A stretch of DNA of 26,405 bases from a virus (lineage: Duplodnaviria; Heunggongvirae; Uroviricota; Caudoviricetes): the IMG/VR virus record IMGVR_UViG_3300033804_000036; one strand, 5' to 3'. A program made the translations under genes and the position numbers. Shown here one piece after another: positions 793-21,348 of the stretch (positions within the stretch are counted from its first letter, which is position 1; each line of letters opens with the position of its first letter). The notes beneath the pieces are model-generated. The model saw nothing but the letters and a program-made list of their open reading frames with translations, made no database searches and was not told the origin of the DNA.

Positions 793-2088
793 CTACAGAG
801 ACAGTGCCACTAGGCCCAAGCCTATCAGCACAAGCAGCCCGTAGTTCGGTGTGGGCGGAGGTGTGACAGCCGTAAACGTGGCAGTTAATGTTTGATTGTT
901 CATCTCGGAAGTGATTACCAGCGACAACGGGTTGTCTATGGGAAGCGCAGCCGAACCTGTCAGAGACCATGACGTGAAAGTGTAGCCAGTTCCAGCAGTC
1001 GCAGCGAAGTTAACTGTGTCGCCTACGTTGAATTGATGCGGACCGGTTGAAGGTGATACTGTTCCGCCTCCGTCTGGAGACACAGCTATGCTCAACGTTA
1101 TCTGCGGTATAGGTATCGAAGTGAACAGTGGAGACAAAGTTTGCCCAGCCATGGCAGACGTGATCGTTAAGGGCAACGGGTTTGTTGAACCGATGTTTGA
1201 CGAGCCGAGTTGCCAATGGTCCAGTTGATAGCTTGAGTTAGGCGTTGCCGTAAACATGTATGACTGGCCAACAGTGTAGCTCGCGGTTCCAGACGGGCTT
1301 ACCGTGCCGTTAGCACCTGCAGTCACGGTCAACTGTATCGTTGGCACAGCAAAGTACAGGTTAATAGGTATTGTTTGGCCTGCAACGATGGTTATTGTTT
1401 GGGCAGGCAACGTTTGGTTTTGATATGTAGCCGTCACTGTGTAGGTTCCAGCAGTAACCGTGAAAGTGAGCGGTGTACCACTGGTTGTTGTGGTTCCTGA
1501 TTGTCCGTCCAAGGTTACGCCCGCACCAGCAAGAGGGATGCTGCCCTGAAATGCATTAACAACTACGTACGCATTTTGCGATGGAGGAGGTGCCGCAAGG
1601 TCGACAGAAGCGTAGATGCTGACGATAATAGGTGCTGTTCCAGCAATCGTTGGCAGAGCAGATGGGAGTGTACCATCATAAGCTTTTGTTGTGATGCTTA
1701 CGTACATGTGCTGGTCGCTAACTGTTCCTGACCCCCAAGCACCCGCAGCCCACCCATTTGCGCCATTGCCAGCCGGAGTCTGCATCACGAGCCAGTACCA
1801 GTTATTATTGACTAGACTGAACGTGCCGGTAAGCTTAATAGTGTTCCACGTGCTCGCCGTAAGACCTGCGTATTCAACGCTGTCTGCAATCTTCGCTCCA
1901 GAGGTAACATCATAGATGCCGAAGACACCCCTGTTGTAGCCGCCATAGTCAACCTGAGGCAAGTAGACGTTGATACTTCCCGTATAGGTTCCTGTGGTGC
2001 CTGTAAACTGAAATTTACAGCCGTTTAATGCACCTCCAAGGTAGTTGATGACAGTCTCAACTATCTGGTTGCCAAGAATAGTGGTCAT
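793..2088 (-). CDS. Thr/Gly-rich multi-domain beta protein: N-terminal beta-sandwich, Ig/InlB B-repeat-like domains, C-terminal TM anchor; putative virion spike
   Basis: 431 aa; repeats such as ATPNSSYQLDHW and ATAGTGYTFTSW followed by NPL; Pro linker then YGLLVLIGLGLVALSL at the C-terminus; no N-terminal signal peptide; GGAGAACC leader at 2092-2099. Confidence 0.75.
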   Translation of the reverse strand: MTTILGNQIVETVINYLGGALNGCKFQFTGTTGTYTGSINVYLPQVDYGGYNRGVFGIYDVTSGAKIADSVEYAGLTASTWNTIKLTGTFSLVNNNWYWLVMQTPAGNGANGWAAGAWGSGTVSDQHMYVSITTKAYDGTLPSALPTIAGTAPIIVSIYASVDLAAPPPSQNAYVVVNAFQGSIPLAGAGVTLDGQSGTTTTSGTPLTFTVTAGTYTVTATYQNQTLPAQTITIVAGQTIPINLYFAVPTIQLTVTAGANGTVSPSGTASYTVGQSYMFTATPNSSYQLDHWQLGSSNIGSTNPLPLTITSAMAGQTLSPLFTSIPIPQITLSIAVSPDGGGTVSPSTGPHQFNVGDTVNFAATAGTGYTFTSWSLTGSAALPIDNPLSLVITSEMNNQTLTATFTAVTPPPTPNYGLLVLIGLGLVALSL

Positions 2089-2217: not shown

Positions 2218-2688
2218 TCATGTACCTGACTGGTTGTAGGATATTCCTTTGACATATATCATGCCAGTCGTGTTTCCCGGCGCACCAGTCCATTCAACAC
2301 CATAATATAAACCAAAGAGAGTTACAGCTGGAATGTTCAGATATGCTCCTGCACCTGTCTGATTAGGCTCTATGTAAAGCGTAGATCCAGCCTTTGCAGC
2401 CGCGCCTTCGAAAAGAATGTGAGTTGCTGCGTTTATGGCGGTTCCATCAGTTGTGTTTTTGTAGACTCGCAGTCTGTATGTTACAGCATTTGTGGGAACT
2501 AGGTAATAGGTTATAGAATTTATAATGGCTCCAACGTTCAAAGAGTTCAAGTTGCTAAACTGGAAAGGTTGAGTTATAGAATCGCCGAAGCCTTTGCTTA
2601 CATCAAAATAGTGTTCTGCACCTGTAGTGCTTCCGATCCACCACCAGCAGGGAATCTGTCTGGCTAAATTTCCAATTTGTAATGTCAT
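2218..2688 (-). CDS. Hypothetical beta-rich protein (156 aa), putative virion component
   Basis: Likely start MTLQIGN at 2688, overlapping the upstream TGA (ATGA), rather than the track start 2766. Confidence 0.65.
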   Translation of the reverse strand: MTLQIGNLARQIPCWWWIGSTTGAEHYFDVSKGFGDSITQPFQFSNLNSLNVGAIINSITYYLVPTNAVTYRLRVYKNTTDGTAINAATHILFEGAAAKAGSTLYIEPNQTGAGAYLNIPAVTLFGLYYGVEWTGAPGNTTGMIYVKGISYNQSGT

Positions 2689-6863: not shown

Positions 6864-8243
6864 ATGAGCGGCTCAGAAGCGATCCTCATCATCCAACAGG
6901 CAGGCTCCGTGGCAGGCGGCGCAACAAATCCCGCGTATGGACAGTACACTTACATGTATCCTTTTCCAACAGTTACAATCAGAGCAACGCCGTCGGCGAA
7001 CTATGCTTTCGACCATTTTGAAGTTAACGGAGTCGTGCACGCCGAAAACCCCATGGTTCTCTCGCTCAGCGAAAACTCTCTTTCGCTTGCAGTAACGGCA
7101 TACACAGTTGTAGTTGACGTCTACTGGAATGTTACATCTACACAGCCTACTCCACCAGCACCGCCGATATCAGATTCAGGACAGGGAAACCTGCATGTTA
7201 ACCCGCTTTCAGCCGACGGCAGCAACGTCACTCCTGAAGCCGAGATTTCTTATCCAGAAGGCTCTCCAGAATTCGCGTACATTCTAGAAGTGATAGGAAA
7301 CTGGAGTTATTACACTTCGCCGCAGGCTGCTGTTCCGAACACGGCATGTCGAACAACAGTGTCTGCAACTGACGCAGACGGAGCTTCAGCAGGCTCAGCG
7401 GTAAAAGTAAGCTCGGCCATAGCATACATCTACGGGTACATGCCTGGCAGCGAAAACTGGACGCCTAACAGTTGCACAGCGTTCATTCTGCCAGACGTTC
7501 CAACAGTCCAGATCATAGGTGCAAGCGGAACCTACAACGTGACTACAGCCTTGACGATGCAGGGCAACCTGAACTTTCAAGGATCACAGACTGGAAGCGT
7601 CTCAACTGTTTCAACAACACCGCCGCCAACCACGTTTACGCTGACACTGGTTCAATCAACTGGCGGAACAGTTTCTGCGCCTCAACTGACAGGTTTCACG
7701 TCCACCGCGCCATACGACACGATTGATATCACTGCTGCGCCGACCGTGACGAGTCTGGCGATAACAGGCTACACGTTTGACCATTGGATAGTGGATGGCA
7801 CAGCGATATCTGACACTCGAAACCCGCTTCCTCTGCTGATGAACAGTGATCACACGGTTCAAGCAGTCTTCAGTCAGGGAACAGGGCCGACAGCCTATTC
7901 AGACGTGACTATAACAGTCACGGGGCAGGGAACAACAACTCCTGCTGCAGGCAACTATCCGAACACGTACCTGCAGATAGCCACACTGGATATATCAGCC
8001 ACGCCAGCATCCGGCTGGACCTACCAGAAAATGCAGCGCAACGGCGCAGACTGGACAGGAGCTAACCCAGGCGAATTCCTAAACCTCGGCATCACCGAAA
8101 ACATCAACGTCATCTTCACTGAACAGACCACAACACCGCCACAGCCAGCGGATAACACTATGCTCATTGCAGGGGTAGCGGTTGCAGGCGCCGTAGTTGT
8201 CGGCGGAGCATACGCTTATTCTAAAAGAAAGAAGAAGAAATAG
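6864..8243 (+). CDS. Thr/Pro-rich Ig/InlB B-repeat-like protein with C-terminal TM anchor and basic tail; putative virion spike
   Basis: 459 aa; ATPSANYAFDHF, TGYTFDHW, ATPASGWTY repeats; ends MLIAGVAVAGAVVVGGAYAYSKRKKKK; no signal peptide; GGAGAACC leader at 6853-6860. Confidence 0.78.
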   Translation: MSGSEAILIIQQAGSVAGGATNPAYGQYTYMYPFPTVTIRATPSANYAFDHFEVNGVVHAENPMVLSLSENSLSLAVTAYTVVVDVYWNVTSTQPTPPAPPISDSGQGNLHVNPLSADGSNVTPEAEISYPEGSPEFAYILEVIGNWSYYTSPQAAVPNTACRTTVSATDADGASAGSAVKVSSAIAYIYGYMPGSENWTPNSCTAFILPDVPTVQIIGASGTYNVTTALTMQGNLNFQGSQTGSVSTVSTTPPPTTFTLTLVQSTGGTVSAPQLTGFTSTAPYDTIDITAAPTVTSLAITGYTFDHWIVDGTAISDTRNPLPLLMNSDHTVQAVFSQGTGPTAYSDVTITVTGQGTTTPAAGNYPNTYLQIATLDISATPASGWTYQKMQRNGADWTGANPGEFLNLGITENINVIFTEQTTTPPQPADNTMLIAGVAVAGAVVVGGAYAYSKRKKKK

Positions 8244-13172: not shown

Positions 13173-13619
13173 CTAGAAAAAACTCAAGTTCTTTCGAAAA
13201 AAGATTTTAGTGCCATATTGTCCGCCGCACATTATTCCCATAGCCATTTTAGACTCTTCAAAAATTTCTTCGGATAAGGCTTCTGGTGAACAGTAGACGG
13301 CGCCACACATCCAAGCAACTATAAAATCTTCACATCTGTCGCCAACATAGACGAGAGTATCCTTCTTTCCCATATGTTTCCGTACGAAGTTTAAACCACT
13401 GTGTTTGATGGCGATGTAGTTTGCTCCTTTCTCAAAACGTACAGCACGCATGCCAAAAGTTGACCTTATCATGCGCTCTTGATCAGCACTATCTCTTTTA
13501 CTCAACAACCATAGAACTGCACCCTTCTTTTGAAGACGCAAACAAAGATCATAAGTTACAGGCCCATGAAAGCGAAAAAGTGTTCCGTCAACGTCAAAAG
13601 CAATATGAAGCCTAGCCAT
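13173..13619 (-). CDS. HAD-superfamily hydrolase/phosphatase
   Basis: Motif I FDVDGTL; motif IV-like YVGDRCED. Confidence 0.8.
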   Translation of the reverse strand: MARLHIAFDVDGTLFRFHGPVTYDLCLRLQKKGAVLWLLSKRDSADQERMIRSTFGMRAVRFEKGANYIAIKHSGLNFVRKHMGKKDTLVYVGDRCEDFIVAWMCGAVYCSPEALSEEIFEESKMAMGIMCGGQYGTKIFFRKNLSFF

Positions 13620-14628
13620 ATTCTTTCAGAACCTCCTCTAATGGCTGTGCCTTGAAGTATGGCGACTTCAGAATGTAAGCGTCTCCTTCTTTTGCCTGTG
13701 TATGTAGGCAGCCATTGCCTGTTGCGTTGATGGTCATTTTTTTAGCGGTTACTATGTGTGTTGCAAGCATGTTACGATAGCCTTTCCAAATCGGGTTTAT
13801 CAAGTATCTCGGATGCTCGCCTTTTTTGAAGTAGTGACCGTCGGAGATAGTGGCTATGAAATCCGGGTTTGTTTCGAGTTGATGTAGAACGGCGGCTGCG
13901 TCGCACGCTTTCTTTTCATCATGGTATTTCGTCATGAAAGACGCAACCCAAGAAGTAAAATAGACTGCGTCTTTGATGTCGAGAACCTGTTCGCTGAAGT
14001 CGAAGCCTACCAGAATTATCGGTTCACATTGAAGCGCAACCGCTAAATTCCAGAGGAAAGCGCCCACGTTGCCGATGCCGCTCATCAGAGGCTTACCGTT
14101 CGTCAACAAAAAGAGAAGATAACTTTGTGTATCATAATATTCTTTGCCCTGCTTGTCTTTTGGAACATCGAGCATCGGAGTGTACCACCAGATTTTGCCG
14201 CCGTAACCTTTCCATTTCTGAATTATCTTTGGATCTGCAAAACCGCTGAAAACAGCGTTCATCTGCCCCGCATATTTCCTGACTATAGGACTCGTGTAGA
14301 AACCGGCGATTTTGTAACTGGCATCAACTGAACTCGTAGCGTAGGGTATGATGCATGCTTTGAGGCAGGCAGCCAATGTTCTGTCACAGGACAGGACGGG
14401 ATGACGCCATTTTTCCTGCACTATCAGATTAAGCTGATCCAGTTTTTTTAAACTTGGACCGGCCCCAACAACGATGCAGGGTTCCTTTTTCGCCGGCAAA
14501 TCCTGCAGGTTAAGACCGTCGCGGACAAGCGGCAGATTTCGGTACAGATGATCCATCCATAGGGGAAGAAGGGTGTTTTTTGTGTTTTTTCCAACCATAG
14601 GGGAAGCTGAAGGCACAATGACACTCAA
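13612..14628 (-). CDS. DUF115 / Maf-like (MptE-like fold) putative glycosyltransferase
   Basis: CIVVGAGPSL, SCDRTL, SVDAS, GNVGAFLWNLA, ILVGFDFS, INATGNG: the typical DUF115 motif series. Confidence 0.8.
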   Translation of the reverse strand: MSVIVPSASPMVGKNTKNTLLPLWMDHLYRNLPLVRDGLNLQDLPAKKEPCIVVGAGPSLKKLDQLNLIVQEKWRHPVLSCDRTLAACLKACIIPYATSSVDASYKIAGFYTSPIVRKYAGQMNAVFSGFADPKIIQKWKGYGGKIWWYTPMLDVPKDKQGKEYYDTQSYLLFLLTNGKPLMSGIGNVGAFLWNLAVALQCEPIILVGFDFSEQVLDIKDAVYFTSWVASFMTKYHDEKKACDAAAVLHQLETNPDFIATISDGHYFKKGEHPRYLINPIWKGYRNMLATHIVTAKKMTINATGNGCLHTQAKEGDAYILKSPYFKAQPLEEVLKEYG

Positions 14629-14705
14629 GTTTTCCGCCTGATATCAGCAAGTCGTCTCTTCAACTGTTCATTGCTCATCTGACGCAGTGTTACAATCTGT
14701 TTCAC
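14625..14705 (-). CDS. 26-aa mini-protein coupled at both ends
   Basis: Not in track. GTG start overlaps the radical SAM TGA; its TGA overlaps the next TTG start; MKQIVTLRQMSNEQLKRRLADIRRKT. Confidence 0.5.
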   Translation of the reverse strand: MKQIVTLRQMSNEQLKRRLADIRRKT

Positions 14706-16339
14706 GGGTTACCGCCTGACTTTTGAGTTTCCCGAGCTTCTAGAGTTTCGTCAAACTTTTTCAGGCGTTCCAAATTTGCAACTGCAATGCTGAAACTTTT
14801 CAGGTCTGTTCGCAGCAAAGACTGTAGGCCAGCAAGTTCTACATCGCTGAAATCGGTTAGGTTGCAACTAATTCTTGTAGCGTCATCAAGCAGTAGGATC
14901 CAGCGTTTCAGCGCCTCATCTCTAATCTTCTCTTTCATCGCAGGCAGATTCTTCATGAGACTGCTTTTAGACGGCATTTCAACAGGTAATTCCCATTTCA
15001 GTTTCATGAAAGTGCCGAGGTCGGGGTCAGCGAGAAACTCTTTTTCTTCTGTTGTCATGTGCTGCTCGATGATTTTGTCCTTGTATTTGTCGTACAATTC
15101 CGTGCCGGGATACGGCTGCAGCAGGAACGGTACGCAGTGAATCTGATTGTCTATGAAGAATTGTAGTGTGGCAATAACGTCGCGGATGGTTTCGCCTGGG
15201 AAGCCCACGATGAAACTCATCACCGGGTTGACTGAAGCCCCATGTGTCGCTTCTATCGCCGCCGACATTTGCTCCGGCGTTTGTCCCTTGCCCATCTCGT
15301 TGAGAATGCGGGAACTTGCAGTTTCTCCGCCGTAGCTTATGTAGCTCAGGCCGACATCATGACCTTTAGCCAACATTTCCTGATCAACTGTTCTGCTGTG
15401 TCCAACGATGCCCCAGTGCAGCTTCGTCGCCAAATCGTATTCTTCAAGTTTGCCGCAGAAATCGTAGAACCATTTCCTGTTGACGGTGAAGTTTTCGTCT
15501 ATGAAACTGATGAAGTTGACAGAGTACGCTACACGTAGATGCAGCAGAAGCCGGGCAACATAGTCGGGGCTGTGTTGACGGAAAAGTTTTCCTTGAAATT
15601 CTTTGCCGTAGACTTTGGTTTGGCAGGACGGATGGAAACAGAAGTAACATTTGTAGGGGCAGCCTAGGCTTGCCATTGCGTCGAGACGACGTAGGGGTTC
15701 ACCTTCATTCATCGGGATTAAACCCATCGATTCTTGACTGTACGGGATCGCGCTGTACTGTAGGTAAGTGGTGATTGGCGCCCAGTCGTAGGCTGGAAAC
15801 GGGATTTCCTCATCCATTTTTTCTTCAGGTATAAGCGGTCGCATCCCGCTTAGCCTTGTGTTTTTGCCTTCGCGGTAGACGAGTCCTTTGATTTTGCTCC
15901 AGTTTTTGTCGTCAAGATGTTCAAGAATCTCCCGCCATGTTACGTAGGCTTCGCCGACTGCGCCTATGTCGAATTCAGGCATCCACCGCATGATGTCAAA
16001 CGGCTGGCTGGACATGAATCCTCCGCCGCCGACGATTAAGGCGGCTGGATATTCTTCGCGGCACACTTTTACGATGGGCATGATAGCTTTGACCTGTGTG
16101 GTTAAACCGCTGATGGCTATGACGTTCCAGGTTTCCTTCTGGTCTTTCTTCTTCTTGATTTCCTGTCGGAAAGCGTCTATCGGCCAACGGTAGGCGTTGT
16201 TGTCGATGAAGCCGATGCCGTAGCCCATCTGTTCAGTTATGCCTACAAGCTGCAGCAGGCCGTATGGCGGATGCTGCGGCGGTTCTTCGGTTCTTATCTC
16301 GGGGAAAATATGTAGGACATATGTTCCGTATTCGGTCAT
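14702..16339 (-). CDS. Cobalamin (B12)-binding radical SAM protein, class B methyltransferase-like
   Basis: N-terminal B12 domain (PPYGLLQL, IAISGLTT, VGGGGF, VGEAY); CPYKCYFC CxxxCxxC; FIDENF, GGETAS, FIVGFPGET, PYPGT. Confidence 0.9.
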   Translation of the reverse strand: MTEYGTYVLHIFPEIRTEEPPQHPPYGLLQLVGITEQMGYGIGFIDNNAYRWPIDAFRQEIKKKKDQKETWNVIAISGLTTQVKAIMPIVKVCREEYPAALIVGGGGFMSSQPFDIMRWMPEFDIGAVGEAYVTWREILEHLDDKNWSKIKGLVYREGKNTRLSGMRPLIPEEKMDEEIPFPAYDWAPITTYLQYSAIPYSQESMGLIPMNEGEPLRRLDAMASLGCPYKCYFCFHPSCQTKVYGKEFQGKLFRQHSPDYVARLLLHLRVAYSVNFISFIDENFTVNRKWFYDFCGKLEEYDLATKLHWGIVGHSRTVDQEMLAKGHDVGLSYISYGGETASSRILNEMGKGQTPEQMSAAIEATHGASVNPVMSFIVGFPGETIRDVIATLQFFIDNQIHCVPFLLQPYPGTELYDKYKDKIIEQHMTTEEKEFLADPDLGTFMKLKWELPVEMPSKSSLMKNLPAMKEKIRDEALKRWILLLDDATRISCNLTDFSDVELAGLQSLLRTDLKSFSIAVANLERLKKFDETLEARETQKSGGNP

Positions 16340-17613
16340 GTTTTATGCTCCTCCAAAAACTCTGAGAATTTCATGCTTGTTATTCCCTGTCCAAACAGGG
16401 TTCCGCCTTCGGTGCAGTTGACGGTTCCGCCGTAAAGCCTGTACCAGAGGTCGGTTATTTCTTGCAGGTTGAGGAAAGCCTGTCTGTAATGGAAGAAGAC
16501 TAGATCAGCGTATGCATGTTCTTTGAAGACAGGATGGTAAAATTTGGGGTAGGTTTTTCTGATTATGTCCACGTTGCCTTTGGCTTCTGCGAGGATTTTG
16601 TCGAAGTACTGCGTCTGCTCGAGAGGTGTTCCTTCAGGATAGCCGAAGTCGATTCCAATCAACGCTATCGGTGACCGTTTAAGCACTTGCATGGCAAAAA
16701 TCCATGCGCATGCACCGGCGTTTCCGCCGCTGTTCATGGCGGGAACTCCCATGTCATATTTCGGCGTGGTTGACAGTAACCGTTGAAGTCTTGTCCACGT
16801 TTCGTTCTGTCGCCAATCGTCGAAGGTTGGGTTGAACCAGTAGATTTTTAGCCCGGCTTTTCGGCCTGCTAGGTAAACGTCATGGTTGATGGTGACTGAA
16901 GCTATCCAGCCGTTAATCATGCTAGCGGCTTGTTCGACAAGCGGGTTGTCAAACCATTTCTTGATGATAGGAGCGCCGTCGACGCTTACAACGTAGTGTG
17001 GGACTACGTCGTTTTCAAGGCAGGGTATCAACGCGCCGTCGCTTGCAACAACTATGCCCTTATATTCGCCGTTCTTCATTTTTTCGGCTAACAGCTTCAG
17101 GTGTCCATGCTTGAAAAGGCTTGGGCCTCGTCCGACAACGACGGCCGAGCCTTTCGGCGGACATTTCACTTTCATGCCTTTAATTTCGCCCATTCTGCCT
17201 TCTTTAGCTTCAGCGTTAGCATATTCTGGTTCGCCTTCAAGAAGGGGAGTCCATTCAACAAGGTCTGAAACAGTTGTCTGCCTGTAGTTTTCGGGGATAG
17301 AAATTATCACTCTGCCATCGACGATGTGTTCGGTTATGTCGTCGCCGTAGCGAATGTTCAGAATGTTGTCCCCGAAATTATGCATCCAAGTTTGCATCAG
17401 AACCTTGAAGCTTCCGTACATTATACGTTCATGTAGGCTGGGTTCGATGTTGACGTCTCGCGCCAGATATTTGAACCATTCACTCCAGCCTGTAGCGCCG
17501 ACCGCGTGGGATTTCAGAGCGCGCAGTTTGCGGAAAGTCCAGTAGTCAACCTTTGTTTGGGGGATGTAAACTTCGCGTCTGAACGCTTCCTGCAGTTCCT
17601 GCTCAAACGTCAC
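16336..17613 (-). CDS. DUF115 / Maf-like protein with N-terminal RHH-like domain
   Basis: AVVVGRGPSL, ASDGAL, SVDGAP, GGNAGACAW, ALIGIDFG, NCTEGG; N-terminus TFRKLRALK...GWSEWF. Confidence 0.78.
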   Translation of the reverse strand: MTFEQELQEAFRREVYIPQTKVDYWTFRKLRALKSHAVGATGWSEWFKYLARDVNIEPSLHERIMYGSFKVLMQTWMHNFGDNILNIRYGDDITEHIVDGRVIISIPENYRQTTVSDLVEWTPLLEGEPEYANAEAKEGRMGEIKGMKVKCPPKGSAVVVGRGPSLFKHGHLKLLAEKMKNGEYKGIVVASDGALIPCLENDVVPHYVVSVDGAPIIKKWFDNPLVEQAASMINGWIASVTINHDVYLAGRKAGLKIYWFNPTFDDWRQNETWTRLQRLLSTTPKYDMGVPAMNSGGNAGACAWIFAMQVLKRSPIALIGIDFGYPEGTPLEQTQYFDKILAEAKGNVDIIRKTYPKFYHPVFKEHAYADLVFFHYRQAFLNLQEITDLWYRLYGGTVNCTEGGTLFGQGITSMKFSEFLEEHKT

Positions 17614-18095
17614 TTCGGCTGATTCTCCAAAAATTTCTTCAGTTTTATAACGGCAGGATGGTTCACATGATCAGGCTCTCTGCGAGGGGGATTAGTTGTG
17701 ATAATCACATCTCGTGGATGCAGCAGAAAACCGACAAGCTGTGCAACTTCTTCTCGTGACAATGAGATGCTCGGTTTCGGCTGCTTCATAAGTCCAGTAA
17801 TCTCTTCTGGTGTTGATGGTCTTGGAGGATGCATTCCGTCAAAGTAGAAGACGCTGTCCGCATCAGTGCCAGCTTGGAAGGCTGCATTGTGCAGGTATGG
17901 CAGTTCACCGTCTATGAATAGGAATTCGATGAAAAGGTCAAATTGGCCGTTCACCAGACGAGAAACAATATCGTCAAAAGACTCGCGTCCACGCCGCATT
18001 TTGTCAAGTTCATTCTTGTTTTCAACGGAAACAGCGATGGTTGTCAGCTTAGGCTGCTCCGTCTTCTTAACTTTCTCCTCAGATTGGGCAGACAA
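17610..18095 (-). CDS. Ribbon-helix-helix domain protein, putative transcriptional regulator
   Basis: TTIAVSVENKNELDKMRRGRESFDDIVSRLV is typical of archaeal RHH (CopG/VapB-like) domains. Confidence 0.65.
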   Translation of the reverse strand: MSAQSEEKVKKTEQPKLTTIAVSVENKNELDKMRRGRESFDDIVSRLVNGQFDLFIEFLFIDGELPYLHNAAFQAGTDADSVFYFDGMHPPRPSTPEEITGLMKQPKPSISLSREEVAQLVGFLLHPRDVIITTNPPRREPDHVNHPAVIKLKKFLENQPK

Positions 18096-18152
18096 GAAGA
18101 TCGGAACTATCTTATAGAAACCACTTCTATAAAAGCGTTATAGAACTTATAT

Positions 18153-18314
18153 CTACTCAACCTTGTCAGTGTCAAGAAGCTTCGTCTTAGTTTTCTTAGG
18201 TTCAATGAAAACACTGCTTCCGCCCAGATGACCCATCGCCATACGGGCAAAAGCAGACGTTGCATCAACGTTTTTTTTGCGTTCACGACTTTCGCTGGTA
18301 ATTATTTCACTCAA
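18153..18314 (-). CDS. Small hypothetical protein (53 aa)
   Basis: Not in track. TTG start overlaps the upstream TGA; MSEIITSESRERKKNVDATSAFARMAMGHLGGSSVFIEPKKTKTKLLDTDKVE. Confidence 0.55.
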   Translation of the reverse strand: MSEIITSESRERKKNVDATSAFARMAMGHLGGSSVFIEPKKTKTKLLDTDKVE

Positions 18315-19414
18315 ACCTGACCCTCAACAATATTTGGCATCTTTAAGTTTTTAACTTTTTCTAGCCACTCGTGGAAAGGCATACATGTTATTCCAGGACC
18401 GAACAGTGTGCCTTCTTCTGAACAGTTGAAAGTTTCAAACCATGCAGGAACTTTACGGGCGAGAGTAAGCCAGCCAGCGCGGTATGTCTGGAAAACCTTG
18501 TCGGCGTAAGCGTAAGTTTTGAAGCAGGGATTATATGTTTTCTTGTACATTTGAGAAGCCGTGTAACTGTCGCAGTGTCTTATCCACATGCTGAAGTAGG
18601 GAGTGTCCTGAAATTTAGTTCCGTCTGGATAGCCTAGGTCAATGCCGATGAGCGCAATCGGAGAACGGCGCAGAAGAGTGTGGTTTAAAACCCAGATGGT
18701 GCAGCCGACGTTTCCTCCGCAACTCACTGCCGGAATACCGTTTGGGTTTTGATGGCTGACCGTCATAAGATTTTGCAGACGTGTCCAAGATTCGCTGCTC
18801 TGCAGTCCATCCATCATTCCGTCAAACCAGTAGATCTGCACCTTGTTCTTTTTACAGATTTTCACGACATCTGGGTTCACACTGTTCACAAGACATGTTT
18901 TGATTTGCGAACCGTACTTCTCTACAAGCGGATGATCGTACCATTTCGTTATTATAGTTTGACCGTCAACCGTGGCTGTTAAATCTGGAATTATTCCCCT
19001 CTCGAGAAGAGGGATAAGCATGCTGTCGCAGGCGCATATGAGACCGTGATATTCTTTATGGTCAATCGCTGATTGCAGCAAGTCTAAATGTTTATGCATG
19101 TGGATGCTTGGACCTGAACCGACAACGATGCTGGGGCCTTTCGGCACGATTTCAGGATGTTCAGGAACCAGTTTGGATATTGAGTCGCCTTCCAAAATAT
19201 CCGTTAAGTTGTGGGCGAAATTGGTGCACCACAGTCCCATTAATCCTCGTCCAGAAGCTCTTTCCTCAGCAGACGCCTTCGGCGAAATGTCTTTCGACTT
19301 GAAAGTAAGCCAGTCACCCCATGTTCGGGCTTTATACCCATCATCTTCCTTCAACCTTTTTAACCGTTCAAAAGTTGTTGGGGGAACATCAACCACAATA
19401 CGTTTAGTGAGCAT
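18311..19414 (-). CDS. DUF115 / Maf-like protein with N-terminal RHH-like domain
   Basis: SIVVGSGPSI, ACDSML, TVDGQ, GGNVG, ALIGIDLG, NCSEEG; N-terminus RIVVDVPPTTFERLKRLK...TWGDWL; apparently leaderless (TATA-like box about 21 nt upstream). Confidence 0.78.
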   Translation of the reverse strand: MLTKRIVVDVPPTTFERLKRLKEDDGYKARTWGDWLTFKSKDISPKASAEERASGRGLMGLWCTNFAHNLTDILEGDSISKLVPEHPEIVPKGPSIVVGSGPSIHMHKHLDLLQSAIDHKEYHGLICACDSMLIPLLERGIIPDLTATVDGQTIITKWYDHPLVEKYGSQIKTCLVNSVNPDVVKICKKNKVQIYWFDGMMDGLQSSESWTRLQNLMTVSHQNPNGIPAVSCGGNVGCTIWVLNHTLLRRSPIALIGIDLGYPDGTKFQDTPYFSMWIRHCDSYTASQMYKKTYNPCFKTYAYADKVFQTYRAGWLTLARKVPAWFETFNCSEEGTLFGPGITCMPFHEWLEKVKNLKMPNIVEGQV

Positions 19415-19450
19415 AACAAATAATGCGTTGCTATATTTTTAAGCCTTATC

Positions 19451-19471: not shown

Positions 19472-19948
19472 TTAAGGCGAAGATGTGATGAAGCCGACCC
19501 ACTGCGCTACAATCGAGTATATTGATGCTCCGTAAGCGCTTGTTGAGTGTCCGATGTTCACTTGGAAGCATGATCCTGAGATTTGCGCCCATAGGAATGG
19601 ACTTTCTATTGTGCTGAACGATGTCTGTATGAATTTCGGTATGAAAGCGATTGGCACAATCTGGTATCCTGTACCGTAAGCTCCTGCACCAAACCAAGCT
19701 GACATCGCGCCGAAAGCGCTGACTACGATAACGTTGCTCTGTGCCGTGGAAGTGGTTGCCGAGGCCACGTACATTGAGTCTGTGATGCTGCCCATGATGA
19801 AGCCTCCGAAAGGCAATGTGAGACCTATACCGGTGCCGAGACCTGCGCTGGCCCCGTAGCTTGCGAATGGAAATCCGCCTGCAATCGCTGTTATCGGCTG
19901 CTGACCTGTCCGCCTAAAGTTAGTCCTGAGAAAACCGCCTGTTGGCAT
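19472..19948 (-). CDS. Gly/Ala/Ser-rich tandem paralogue 3, putative virion fibre/structural protein
   Basis: 158 aa; same N-terminus MPTGGFLRTNFRRTGQQPITAI and C-terminus WVGFI(T/C)SSP as the other two. Confidence 0.75.
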   Translation of the reverse strand: MPTGGFLRTNFRRTGQQPITAIAGGFPFASYGASAGLGTGIGLTLPFGGFIMGSITDSMYVASATTSTAQSNVIVVSAFGAMSAWFGAGAYGTGYQIVPIAFIPKFIQTSFSTIESPFLWAQISGSCFQVNIGHSTSAYGASIYSIVAQWVGFITSSP

Positions 19949-19990
19949 GTCAAGTCACTCCTATGGAGACGAGCATATGAACCCCACCCA
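19882..19990. repeat. 109-bp perfect direct repeat, copy A (copy B 20404-20512; first 66 bp also at 20947-21012)
   Basis: Base-by-base comparison; spans the 3' end of one paralogue, the spacer/SD and the 5' end of the next. Confidence 0.92.
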
Positions 19991-20470
19991 ACGGAAGTCT
20001 ACGAGAGAATAGCACGCTGGCACAGCACTTAACGTGGAAGCTGCGACGAGAACTCCGAATGTTGAGTCGCCTGGCACTGACATGCTTGCCCATATGAAGG
20101 GTCCGCCGCCTGCGCCTGATGGTGAAGAAGCGTTGGTGATTCCTGCCATAATTCTTGGTATGAAAGCTACTGGCAGAATTCTGTATCCTGAAGTGTAAGC
20201 ACCTGCACCGAACCATCCGGACATTGCACCGTAAGCACTGATAACCATTAGATTGCTTGCGCCTGCATAGTAGCCTAAGGCTGAAGCATCTCCTGATGTG
20301 AGGTTAACGCTGCCCATGATGAGACCGCCGAATGGCATGTTGGTTCCTGTTCCTGTTCCAATGCCCTGAACGCCAGCATAGCTTGTGAATGGGTAGATTC
20401 CGCCAATCGCTGTTATCGGCTGCTGACCTGTCCGCCTAAAGTTAGTCCTGAGAAAACCGCCTGTTGGCAT
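19961..20470 (-). CDS. Gly/Ala/Ser-rich tandem paralogue 2
   Basis: 169 aa; SD GGAGTGA upstream. Confidence 0.75.
   Translation of the reverse strand: MPTGGFLRTNFRRTGQQPITAIGGIYPFTSYAGVQGIGTGTGTNMPFGGLIMGSVNLTSGDASALGYYAGASNLMVISAYGAMSGWFGAGAYTSGYRILPVAFIPRIMAGITNASSPSGAGGGPFIWASMSVPGDSTFGVLVAASTLSAVPACYSLVDFRWVGFICSSP
20184..20245. repeat. 62-bp internal constant block, identical to 20700-20761
   Basis: Encodes VISAYGAMSGWFGAGAYTSGY in paralogues 1 and 2. Confidence 0.9.
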
Positions 20471-20512
20471 GTCAAGTCACTCCTATGGAGACGAGCATAT
20501 GAACCCCACCCA
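20404..20512. repeat. 109-bp perfect direct repeat, copy B
   Basis: Identical to 19882-19990 (offset 522). In addition, 20376-20469 is identical to 20919-21012 (94 bp). Confidence 0.92.
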
Positions 20513-21013
20513 GATGAAGTCTATCAGTGAACATTCGGATCCCGTGACGCTGTAAGTTGAAGCGGCGATGTTCACCCCGAAGCACGAGTCGGTTCCTGTT
20601 GACACACTTGCCCATAGATAAGGTCCTTGTTCTCCTGACGTTGTTGGGGAAGAGGGAAGAGCTATTTGTTTTGGCATTATGTTTATTGGTAAAATCTTAT
20701 ATCCTGAAGTGTAAGCACCTGCACCGAACCATCCGGACATTGCACCGTAAGCACTGATAACTATCACATGTGTTACGGTTGCTCCACCATATCCTGATTG
20801 TACCCATGAACAATCCTGTGATCCTATAACGCTGCCCATGATGAGGCCGTTGTAAGGCAAGTTAGTCCCTGCGCCGAATCCACCATAGCTACCTTGAACA
20901 TAAGACAGAGCGCTGGCTGCATAGCTTGTGAATGGGTAGATTCCGCCAATCGCTGTTATCGGCTGCTGACCTGTCCGCCTAAAGTTAGTCCTGAGAAAAC
21001 CGCCTGTTGGCAA
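20483..21013 (-). CDS. Gly/Ala/Ser-rich tandem paralogue 1
   Basis: 176 aa; TTG start after GGAGAACC (21018-21025). Confidence 0.75.
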   Translation of the reverse strand: MPTGGFLRTNFRRTGQQPITAIGGIYPFTSYAASALSYVQGSYGGFGAGTNLPYNGLIMGSVIGSQDCSWVQSGYGGATVTHVIVISAYGAMSGWFGAGAYTSGYKILPINIMPKQIALPSSPTTSGEQGPYLWASVSTGTDSCFGVNIAASTYSVTGSECSLIDFIWVGFICSSP

Positions 21014-21087: not shown

Positions 21088-21108
21088 CCCTTTGCACGAT
21101 TATAAGTG

Positions 21109-21348
21109 TTATAGCAAAACATAGTTGCCAGATGAGGAATCTACTGGCAAGTCGCGTACTGACCGTGTTCTAATGTGGTCGACGCCTTTAACGAAAAGTA
21201 CGTCGCCGACTTTTGCGGCGCTGCCTGCTGTGCACGCGCACAGCCGTTGAACGGGTAAAATGCAGGGTTGTCCAGTGGGAACGTTGCGAGCATAAGTCGC
21301 TTTTCTGACAGTGTCAACGCCTCTGACGAACAAAAAGTCTTCCGGCAT
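21109..21348 (-). CDS. Small protein with internal duplication (79 aa)
   Basis: FLFVRGVDTVR / VLFVKGVDHIR; start likely ATG 21348 after GGTGA SD. Confidence 0.6.
   Translation of the reverse strand: MPEDFLFVRGVDTVRKATYARNVPTGQPCILPVQRLCACTAGSAAKVGDVLFVKGVDHIRTRSVRDLPVDSSSGNYVLL

What the first reader, a model, noticed from the sequence alone, without database searches (positions are those of the whole stretch)
16336..19414. Ribbon-helix-helix-like DNA-binding domains fused to Maf-like glycosyltransferases
Seen: two of the three DUF115 proteins have N-terminal extensions (RIVVDVPPTTFERLKRLK..TWGDWL; YIPQTKVDYWTFRKLRALK..GWSEWF). These align by pattern with the stand-alone RHH between them (TIAVSVENKNELDKMR..SFDDIV). 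The third DUF115 (13612-14628) starts directly at the shared W-x-x-(N/H)-(F/L)-x-x-N segment. Inference: enzymes that double as CMP-sugar-sensing regulators, transferases tethered to DNA or nucleoprotein (glycosylation at the packaging site, or even DNA modification), or RHH used for dimerisation. I do not know this fusion from characterised Maf proteins.
Basis: partly seen in the sequence, partly recalled or inferred. Interest (0 to 1): 0.75.

Follow-up and report, generated by a model that had tools for sequence, protein, structure and literature searches.

The report
RHH-like handle on viral Maf-type transferases
Two sugar-transferase genes of a probable archaeal virus carry a conserved 45-residue N-terminal add-on that is predicted to fold like a ribbon-helix-helix unit. 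Such units normally pair up and often bind DNA, but here the likeness shows only in predicted structure, and neither pairing nor DNA binding has been tested.

Summary
There are three PF01973 (MptE-like/DUF115) ORFs. Two of them (18311-19414 and 16336-17613, minus strand) have an N-terminal extension that the third (13612-14628) lacks. Between them lies a 161-aa protein whose orthologues are clear DUF7557/VapB-type RHH proteins.

The extension is a real, conserved module. A profile of it found 46 proteins among 1.84 billion. In all 46 it sits at the extreme N-terminus. All those examined are PF01973 enzymes, intein-bearing versions of them, or short fragments mostly from tiny contigs. A marine sister clade lacks it.

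Its body (residues 47-362) matches the central domain of Maf glycosyltransferase 5MU5 (Z 23.2), so the extension is not the ordinary Maf N-domain.

- **Sequence evidence for RHH is not significant:** no Pfam hit in 26 members, and hhalign against the neighbouring RHH gives P about 0.02-0.035.
- **Fold evidence is consistent:** AlphaFold2 and the ESM Atlas model both give an extended segment followed by helix-loop-helix. About 27 of the 38 nearest PDB chains are RHH proteins, but at low Z (2.5-4.0).

My best reading is an RHH-like dimerisation handle that works with the co-inherited RHH protein. DNA binding is possible but untested. This is a new variant of known kinds. The scan has not noted this fusion on other DNA.

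The parts
18311..19414 (-). Maf1: 367-aa PF01973 (MptE-like/DUF115) enzyme. Body residues 47-362 are Maf-like.
   Evidence: Pfam E 5e-19. AF2 mean pLDDT 91. 5MU5 central domain Z 23.2, rmsd 3.6, 257 aligned.
19277..19414 (-). N-module of Maf1 (residues 1-46): extended segment 1-11, helix 12-24, conserved loop D-G-[FY]-G-D-[KR]-[ST], helix 32-41.
   Evidence: AF2 on a 26-sequence alignment, pLDDT 82. Same helices in the full-length model. Nearest PDB folds are mostly RHH, Z 2.5-4.0. ESM Atlas neighbours are RHH clusters, TM 0.53-0.67. Column conservation.
19431..19442 (-). A/T-rich TATA-like box (TTAAAAATATAG) about 20 nt upstream of the Maf1 ATG. An oligo-T tract lies further upstream, after the preceding gene.
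   Evidence: Read from sequence. Promoter function is inferred.
18153..18314 (-). o53: conserved 53-codon ORF (TTG start overlapping the Maf1 stop), motif VGGSxVYIEPKKTK.
   Evidence: tblastn finds syntenic orthologues in at least 15 loci, E down to 3e-14. Also visible in the upstream regions.
18112..18151 (-). Double or triple TATA-like element (TTCTATAA / TTATAGAA / TTCTATAA) upstream of the RHH161 start. Candidate promoter and/or operator.
   Evidence: the repeat finder D4, I1, I2. The pattern has 7 matches against 0.12 expected. A similar pair precedes RHH161 orthologues in at least 15 loci.
17610..18095 (-). RHH161: 161-aa protein with a DUF7557/VapB-type RHH domain (residues about 15-50, window 17946-18053) and a conserved C-terminal region of unknown fold. 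Its stop overlaps the Maf2 start.
16336..17613 (-). Maf2: 425-aa PF01973 enzyme. It has an N-module variant (an extra leading helix, then the strand-helix-loop-helix equivalent) and an insertion of about 50 aa before the Rossmann core.
   Evidence: Pfam E 6.7e-15. Alignments A1 and A4. Orthologues 53-63% identical in loci.
17446..17613 (-). N-module of Maf2 (residues 1-56).
   Evidence: Aligned with the Maf1-type module. Not modelled on its own.
14702..16339 (-). B12-binding radical SAM enzyme. Its start overlaps the Maf2 stop. It is paired with Maf-like genes in many loci, including many marine loci that lack the N-module.
   Evidence: Pfam. Synteny.
13612..14628 (-). Maf3: 338-aa PF01973 enzyme without the N-module.

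Best explanation
Maf1 and Maf2 are short Maf-type sugar transferases of a virus-like element linked to Bathyarchaeia. In one lineage they acquired a 45-residue N-terminal module.

The module most likely folds as a ribbon-helix-helix-type unit: strand, helix A, an enlarged G-x-x-x-[KR]-[ST] turn, then helix B. This fold is only stable as an intertwined dimer. So its first consequence would be that the enzymes pair through their N-termini, either as homodimers or as a Maf1:Maf2 heterodimer.

The genuine RHH protein encoded next to them (RHH161) is the first gene of the RHH161-Maf2-radical-SAM unit. It is the more likely transcription regulator of that unit.

Shown: the fusion, its conservation, its restriction to this enzyme clade, the Maf-like body, and the RHH-like predicted topology.

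Inferred: the RHH fold itself, dimerisation, and the division of labour with RHH161.
For: - **Topology:** two predictors agree.
- **Structural neighbours:** about 27 of the top 38 among 48,161 PDB representatives are RHH proteins (NikR, VapB12, TacA, MazE6/9, PutA RHH, RelB, Arc, ParG), aligned over 40-44 of 46 residues.
- **RHH-type sequence features:** hydrophobic residues alternate in the strand (positions 6, 8, 10). Helix A is capped by a conserved D-G. A conserved [KR]-[ST] sits at the start of helix B. Core aromatics follow at i, i+4 and i+8.
- **Buried surface:** eleven large hydrophobic residues in 40 positions are too many for a lone two-helix hairpin to bury (inference).
- **Linker:** pLDDT is low (62) between the module and the body in the full-length model.
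- **Distribution:** the module is always at the extreme N-terminus of PF01973 proteins or N-terminal fragments of them.
- **Co-occurrence:** RHH161 is present in 22 of 39 loci with the module and 0 of 41 without.
Against: - No significant sequence or profile similarity to any RHH family.
- Z scores of 2.5-4.0 are below what the aligner's own notes treat as reliable. A 46-residue strand-plus-hairpin may match RHH chains easily.
- Foldseek found nothing in the PDB.
- The strand is not assigned as strand in either monomer model.
- The inter-helix loop is 3 residues longer than in classic RHH proteins.
- No multimer model could be run, and I could not see whether the module docks on the catalytic body.
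- The co-occurrence with RHH161 is clade-level, so it is not independent evidence.
Confidence: 0.5

Rival explanations
1. PutA-like bifunctional enzyme-regulator or DNA-tethered transferase. The module is a working DNA-binding RHH, so Maf1 and Maf2 bind viral DNA. They would do this either at their own promoters, giving feedback on the glycosylation genes, or non-specifically, placing the enzymes on the genome or nucleoprotein.
For: - RHH-like predicted fold.
- Mean net charge +3.3, with nearly invariant K/R17, K22 and [KR]30-[ST]31 at the helix B N-terminus, where RHH proteins contact phosphate.
- The PutA RHH is among the structural neighbours.
- Repeated TATA-like elements lie upstream of the RHH161-Maf2 unit.
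Against: - The positions of the strand that would face DNA are highly variable, and position 9 is Asp or Glu in about a third of sequences.
- A dedicated RHH protein is already encoded in the same unit.
- The module has not spread to any other protein family among 1.84 billion proteins, unlike typical DNA-binding RHH domains.
Confidence: 0.2
2. Not an RHH. The module is a helical hairpin with a floppy N-terminal tail. It either docks on the catalytic domain or serves as a handle for a partner: the acceptor protein (the tandem 158-176-aa paralogues upstream), the small o53 protein, or the C-terminal domain of RHH161.
For: - No sequence membership in any RHH family.
- No strand is assigned in the models.
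- The strongly conserved, enlarged loop D-G-F-G-D-K-S-W looks like a binding surface.
- The module is co-inherited with o53, RHH161 and the paralogous small proteins.
Against: - The structural neighbour lists from two independent models are dominated by RHH proteins, not by generic hairpins.
- The alternating hydrophobic pattern ahead of helix A is what an RHH ribbon needs.
Confidence: 0.25
3. Annotation artefact. The N-module would be a separate small gene, or an untranslated leader joined to the enzyme ORF by a wrong start choice.
For: Maf2 starts with GTG. Several 47-51-aa database proteins consist of the module alone.
Against: - There is a single uninterrupted frame in more than 60 homologues, with the module always continuous with the body.
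- The Maf1 ATG lies about 20 nt behind a TATA-like box.
- The short proteins checked sit on contigs of 450-1509 bp or lack a recorded contig, so they are probably contig-end fragments.
Confidence: 0.03

Closest known systems
PutA (E. coli proline utilisation A): N-terminal RHH domain fused to metabolic enzyme domains
   Same: A roughly 45-residue RHH-type unit sits at the extreme N-terminus of an enzyme. The PutA RHH (2RBF) is among the structural neighbours of the module.
   Different: The PutA RHH is a recognised family member with proven operator binding. Here there is no sequence membership, the enzyme is a Maf-type transferase, a separate RHH protein is encoded alongside, and DNA binding is untested.
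Maf (motility accessory factor) flagellin nonulosonic-acid glycosyltransferases, e.g. Magnetospirillum magneticum Maf, PDB 5MU5
   Same: The central Maf_flag10/PF01973 domain is shared (Z 23.2). The genes sit among sugar-nucleotide genes: a NeuA-type cytidylyltransferase, a DegT aminotransferase, an LbH acetyltransferase and a Gfo/Idh/MocA oxidoreductase.
   Different: Bacterial Maf is about 630 aa with a Rossmann-like N-domain and a helical C-domain (PMC11339370). These proteins are 338-425 aa and lack both. They carry the 45-aa module instead, and they come from an archaeal virus-like element with no flagellin.
DUF7557 / VapB_antitox (PF24434, PF02697) archaeal RHH proteins
   Same: The neighbouring 161-aa protein belongs here: 14 of 17 orthologues, best E 7.9e-12. 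The N-module aligns to it in the expected register.
   Different: That alignment is not significant (P about 0.02-0.035). The module's inter-helix loop is 3-4 residues longer. RHH161 has an extra C-terminal region of about 100 aa with unknown fold.
Viral MptE-like/DUF115 proteins of uncultured tailed phages and giant viruses (BFVD entries)
   Same: The catalytic fold is the same (Foldseek E down to 2.9e-13). So Maf-like enzymes in viruses are not new.
   Different: I found no sign of this N-module outside the Bathyarchaeia-linked clade: no tblastn match in GenBank phages and none in IMG/VR.

Membership tests
PF01973 (MptE-like / DUF115 / Maf_flag10) | Pfam profile match above the gathering score (34.6 bits) | tested here: met
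   69.1, 55.7 and 67.6 bits for the three ORFs.
Maf flagellin glycosyltransferases | Central domain with the Maf fold | tested here: met
   5MU5 residues 234-520 align to model residues 47-362 with Z 23.2, rmsd 3.6 and 257 aligned. The MptE kinase 8SD5 gives Z 15.1.
Maf flagellin glycosyltransferases | Three-domain architecture: Rossmann-like N-domain and helical C-domain flanking the central domain | tested here: not met
   The proteins are 338-425 aa against 632. The alignment covers only chain residues 234-520. The architecture is described in PMC11339370.
Maf flagellin glycosyltransferases | Transfer of a CMP-activated nonulosonic acid to Ser/Thr of an acceptor protein | not testable with these tools
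   Context only: CTP_transf_3, DegT, LbH and Gfo/Idh/MocA genes lie in the window. No NeuB/PseI-type synthase was identified.
Ribbon-helix-helix superfamily (N-module of Maf1 and Maf2) | Significant sequence or profile match to an RHH family | tested here: not met
   0 of 26 members hit any RHH Pfam at E<=10. The PDB profile search found nothing relevant. hhalign against the RHH161 family gave probability 2-3%, with an empirical 7 of 200 shuffles reaching the score.
Ribbon-helix-helix superfamily (N-module of Maf1 and Maf2) | Strand - helix A - tight turn - helix B topology of about 45 residues | tested here: inconclusive
   Helices 12-24 and 32-41 follow an extended, alternately hydrophobic segment. 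The neighbours are mostly RHH but at Z 2.5-4.0 and TM 0.53-0.67. The turn is enlarged by 3 residues. The strand is not assigned in a monomer model.
Ribbon-helix-helix superfamily (N-module of Maf1 and Maf2) | Intertwined dimer with a two-stranded antiparallel ribbon | not testable with these tools
   No multimer prediction is available here.
Ribbon-helix-helix superfamily (N-module of Maf1 and Maf2) | Sequence-specific DNA binding through the ribbon | not testable with these tools
   Only indirect evidence: the outward strand positions are variable and often acidic.
DUF7557 / VapB_antitox RHH (stand-alone 161-aa protein) | Pfam profile match | tested here: met
   The window copy is just under the cut-offs (27.2/27.9 and 23.6/25 bits; A). 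The family passes: 14 of 17 orthologues hit DUF7557 (best 7.9e-12) and 12 of 17 hit VapB_antitox (B). The ESM Atlas neighbours are DUF7557 clusters.

The most novel reading that the evidence does not exclude
A virus-encoded pair of protein glycosyltransferases has captured a highly diverged RHH domain, possibly a duplicate of the adjacent RHH gene. Through it they either bind the viral genome or promoters directly, which would couple sugar transfer to DNA or to their own expression in a PutA-like way. Or they assemble with the RHH161 protein into a mixed RHH complex that joins the regulator and the enzymes.
Probability: 0.18. Interest if true: 0.75.

Novelty: new variant of a known kind. Interest (0 to 1): 0.5.

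Why it matters
If the module is a true RHH, I know of no other glycosyltransferase that carries this small dimerising, DNA-binding fold. A full-text search for the combination also turned up none.

It would give a concrete handle on how a large archaeal virus organises or regulates its own protein-glycosylation machinery. It also defines a compact conserved gene set that can be expressed and tested: small paralogous proteins, Maf(N), o53, RHH161, Maf(N), B12 radical SAM, Maf.

If it is only a dimerisation or partner-binding handle, it is a modest lineage-specific domain accretion.

Tried and rejected
Genomic context came from the search for related loci instead.
- **No relatives in several collections.** IMG/VR viral contigs held none. 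tblastn against GenBank phages gave no match. No whole genome is held for the window. PHROGs gave nothing for ten proteins of the region.
- **Searches with the N-module that found nothing useful.**
  - Pfam scan of single segments and of 26 members: no RHH family.
  - Profile against PDB sequences: only chance-level rows.
  - Foldseek of the 46-aa model against the PDB: 0 matches.
  - ESM Atlas search by features: no usable hit.
- **Stand-alone copies of the module.** The 47-51-aa database proteins looked like stand-alone copies. The four with a recorded contig lie on contigs of 450-1509 bp, so I treat them all as probable fragments.
- **Longer proteins with the module.** The 690-1250-aa hits looked like new architectures. 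They are the same enzyme interrupted by inteins.
- **Ordinary Maf N-domain:** rejected.
- **MptE-type pterin kinase as the closer relative:** rejected in favour of Maf (Z 15.1 against 23.2).
- **Literature:** no paper describing an RHH-glycosyltransferase fusion, or Maf-like genes in Bathyarchaeia viruses, was found. The search covers open-access texts only.


Full report
**What is in the sequence**

All genes between 10931 and 26405 run on the minus strand. From 21013 down to 13612 the order is:
- three tandem paralogues of 158-176 aa (19472-21013);
- Maf1 (18311-19414, 367 aa);
- a small ORF (18153-18314);
- a 161-aa protein, here called RHH161 (17610-18095);
- Maf2 (16336-17613, 425 aa; its GTG start overlaps the RHH161 stop);
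- a B12-binding radical SAM enzyme (14702-16339; its start overlaps the Maf2 stop);
- Maf3 (13612-14628, 338 aa).

Maf1, Maf2 and Maf3 all pass Pfam's threshold for PF01973, the MptE-like family formerly called DUF115 or Maf_flag10. Elsewhere the window holds a CTP_transf_3 cytidylyltransferase, a DegT aminotransferase, an LbH acetyltransferase and a Gfo/Idh/MocA oxidoreductase. So a sugar-nucleotide context is real.

No whole genome is held for the window. The encoding contig is 90.4 kb. Earlier notes of this scan read it as a large archaeal virus, probably of Bathyarchaeia. In agreement, the only named relatives are binned as Bathyarchaeia or Bathyarchaeota.

**The extension is real and is a domain-sized fusion**

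Maf3 reaches that helix 14-24 residues after its start.

Homologues 36-58% identical to Maf1 keep the extension. Seventy-nine metagenome loci were fetched.
- In the sediment and groundwater loci the extension is present in two flavours. The Maf1 type starts M-P-K-K directly at the strand. The Maf2 type has an extra leading helix.
- About 40 marine loci encode relatives 32-37% identical over the catalytic body. These start only about 20 residues before the W helix and lack the extension.

A 48-position profile of the extension (alignment A2) was searched against 1.84 billion representative proteins. It found 46 hits at E<=1e-3, and every one matched at residues 1 to about 56. They sort into three groups:
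- proteins of 350-420 aa, the size of the PF01973 enzymes;
- proteins of 690-1250 aa, which are the same enzyme interrupted by Hint/LAGLIDADG inteins;
- short proteins, several of which are visibly N-terminal fragments of the enzyme; those checked mostly lie on contigs of 450-2047 bp.

So the module is confined to this enzyme clade and I found no convincing stand-alone form.

**The body is Maf-like and the extension is not the usual Maf N-domain**

A full-length AlphaFold2 model (38-sequence alignment, mean pLDDT 91, pTM 0.84) was compared with solved structures.
- Residues 47-362 align with residues 234-520 of Maf glycosyltransferase 5MU5: Foldseek E 1.4e-10; VIA-align Z 23.2, rmsd 3.6 A, 257 aligned.
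- This is well above the archaeal MptE pterin kinase 8SD5 (Z 15.1) and eukaryotic sialyltransferases (Z about 8).

Bacterial Maf has a Rossmann-like N-domain and a helical C-domain (PMC11339370). Neither is present here.

**Is the extension an RHH? Sequence says 'not shown', predicted structure says 'probably'**

Sequence evidence:
- None of 26 module sequences hits any RHH Pfam family, even at E<=10.
- A profile search of PDB sequences gives only chance-level rows.
- Profile-profile comparison with the RHH domain of the neighbouring protein family (A3) gives probability 3.3%.
Seven of 200 column-shuffled controls reach it. That is suggestive at best.

Structure evidence:
- AlphaFold2 on the isolated module (pLDDT 82) and within the full-length protein gives the same picture. 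There is an extended segment at 1-11, a helix at 12-24, a 7-residue loop, and a helix from 32 to 39 or 41.
- Foldseek found nothing for the 46-residue model.
- An exhaustive VIA-align run against 48,161 PDB representatives gave 157 chains with Z>=2. By my count about 27 of the top 38 are RHH or RHH-like proteins. They include NikR, VapB12, PcfF, TacA1/2/3, MazE6/9, the PutA RHH, pCXC100 ParB, RelB, AmrZ, NikA, DinJ, Arc, CdbA, MatP, ParG and TCP domains. They align over 40-44 residues at rmsd about 3.1-3.5 A.
- The ESM Atlas's own single-sequence model of Maf1, cut to residues 1-48, has MobC, HicB-RHH, NikA-like, FitA-like, TacA1 and NikR clusters as nearest neighbours (TM 0.53-0.67).

The Z values (2.5-4.0) are low in absolute terms and the tool warns against over-reading them. 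The argument rests on the enrichment and on the agreement of two predictors, not on any single score.

Column statistics fit an RHH core:
- alternating hydrophobic residues at 6, 8 and 10;
- F/Y15, L18 and L21 in helix A;
- a conserved D25-G26 cap;
- [KR]30-[ST]31 at the start of helix B;
- W32, aromatic 35, L/F36 and L/I39 in helix B.

The G-x-[ST] turn of classic RHH proteins is enlarged to G-[FY]-G-D-[KR]-[ST].

**The neighbour really is an RHH and travels with the module**

The window's RHH161 is a hair below Pfam's cut-offs when scanned alone. But 14 of 17 orthologous segments hit DUF7557 (best E 7.9e-12) and 12 of 17 hit VapB_antitox. The ESM Atlas neighbours are DUF7557 clusters. Its C-terminal region of about 100 residues is conserved but has no family.

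Orthologues lie directly upstream of an N-module Maf gene in many loci, including the Bathyarchaeia MAG contig L080. RHH161 was found in 22 of 39 loci with the module and in none of 41 without. This is a clade-level association, not independent events.

**Signals**

A TATA-like box (19431-19442) lies about 20 nt before the Maf1 ATG.

Upstream of RHH161, three copies of TTCTATAA / TTATAGAA (18112-18151) form overlapping inverted and direct repeats. The pattern TATAR-N3-6-YTATAR has 7 matches at three places in the window against 0.12 expected. A comparable pair precedes RHH161 orthologues in at least 15 loci. It may be a promoter type of this virus group, an operator, or both. I did not resolve this.

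**How it most likely works**

An RHH unit cannot fold alone. If the prediction holds, the minimum consequence is N-terminal dimerisation of Maf1 and Maf2, possibly with each other, since both types usually occur together.

I rank a pure DNA-binding or regulatory role lower, for three reasons:
- the would-be DNA-facing strand positions vary freely and are acidic in about a third of sequences;
- the same unit already encodes a canonical RHH protein;
- the module has not spread to any other protein family.

A non-RHH hairpin that binds a partner (the acceptor, o53 or RHH161) remains a serious rival. Nothing here supports CMP-sugar sensing or DNA glycosylation.

**Limits**

- No multimer prediction was possible, and I had no access to model coordinates or PAE.
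- The literature search covered open-access texts only.

Noticed in passing
Syntenic orthologues occur between Maf1 and RHH161 in at least 15 loci. It has a Gly-Gly-Ser centre and sits close to the B12 radical SAM gene in this cluster. I wondered about a modified small protein or peptide, but did not test this.
   Followed up: partly
window 2511-2525, 18112-18151, 21100-21114: A paired TATA-like element (TATAR-N3-6-YTATAR) gives 7 matches against 0.12 expected. It also lies upstream of RHH161 orthologues in other loci. It may be a promoter type of this virus group or an operator.
   Followed up: partly
proteins P0029, P0030, P0031, P0036, P0037, P0042, P0050, P0053, P0061 (homologues elsewhere): Many homologues of these Maf-like enzymes are interrupted by Hint/LAGLIDADG inteins, some with extra HTH domains. 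P0029 reaches 1247 aa and may hold two.
   Followed up: partly
L007:13909-19102 and L012:6776-9595: The orthologue of the B12 radical SAM gene matches in several separated pieces spread over 3-5 kb. That suggests inteins or inserted elements in that gene too.
   Followed up: no
window 19472-21013 (-): Three tandem paralogues (158, 169, 176 aa) share the N-terminus MPTGGFLRTNFRRTGQQPITAI and Gly/Ser/Thr-rich middles. They have no Pfam or PHROG family. One to three copies sit directly upstream of Maf1 in many loci, making them candidate structural proteins and glycosylation acceptors.
   Followed up: partly
loci L036-L079 (marine metagenomes): A Maf-like gene without the N-module is paired with a B12 radical SAM gene, often divergently, in many marine contigs. 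So the transferase-radical-SAM pair is older and wider than the RHH-like fusion.
   Followed up: partly
window 793-2088 (-) and 6864-8243 (+): Two proteins carry divergent InlB B-repeat (Flg_new_2) domains and are interleaved with the sugar genes.
   Followed up: no
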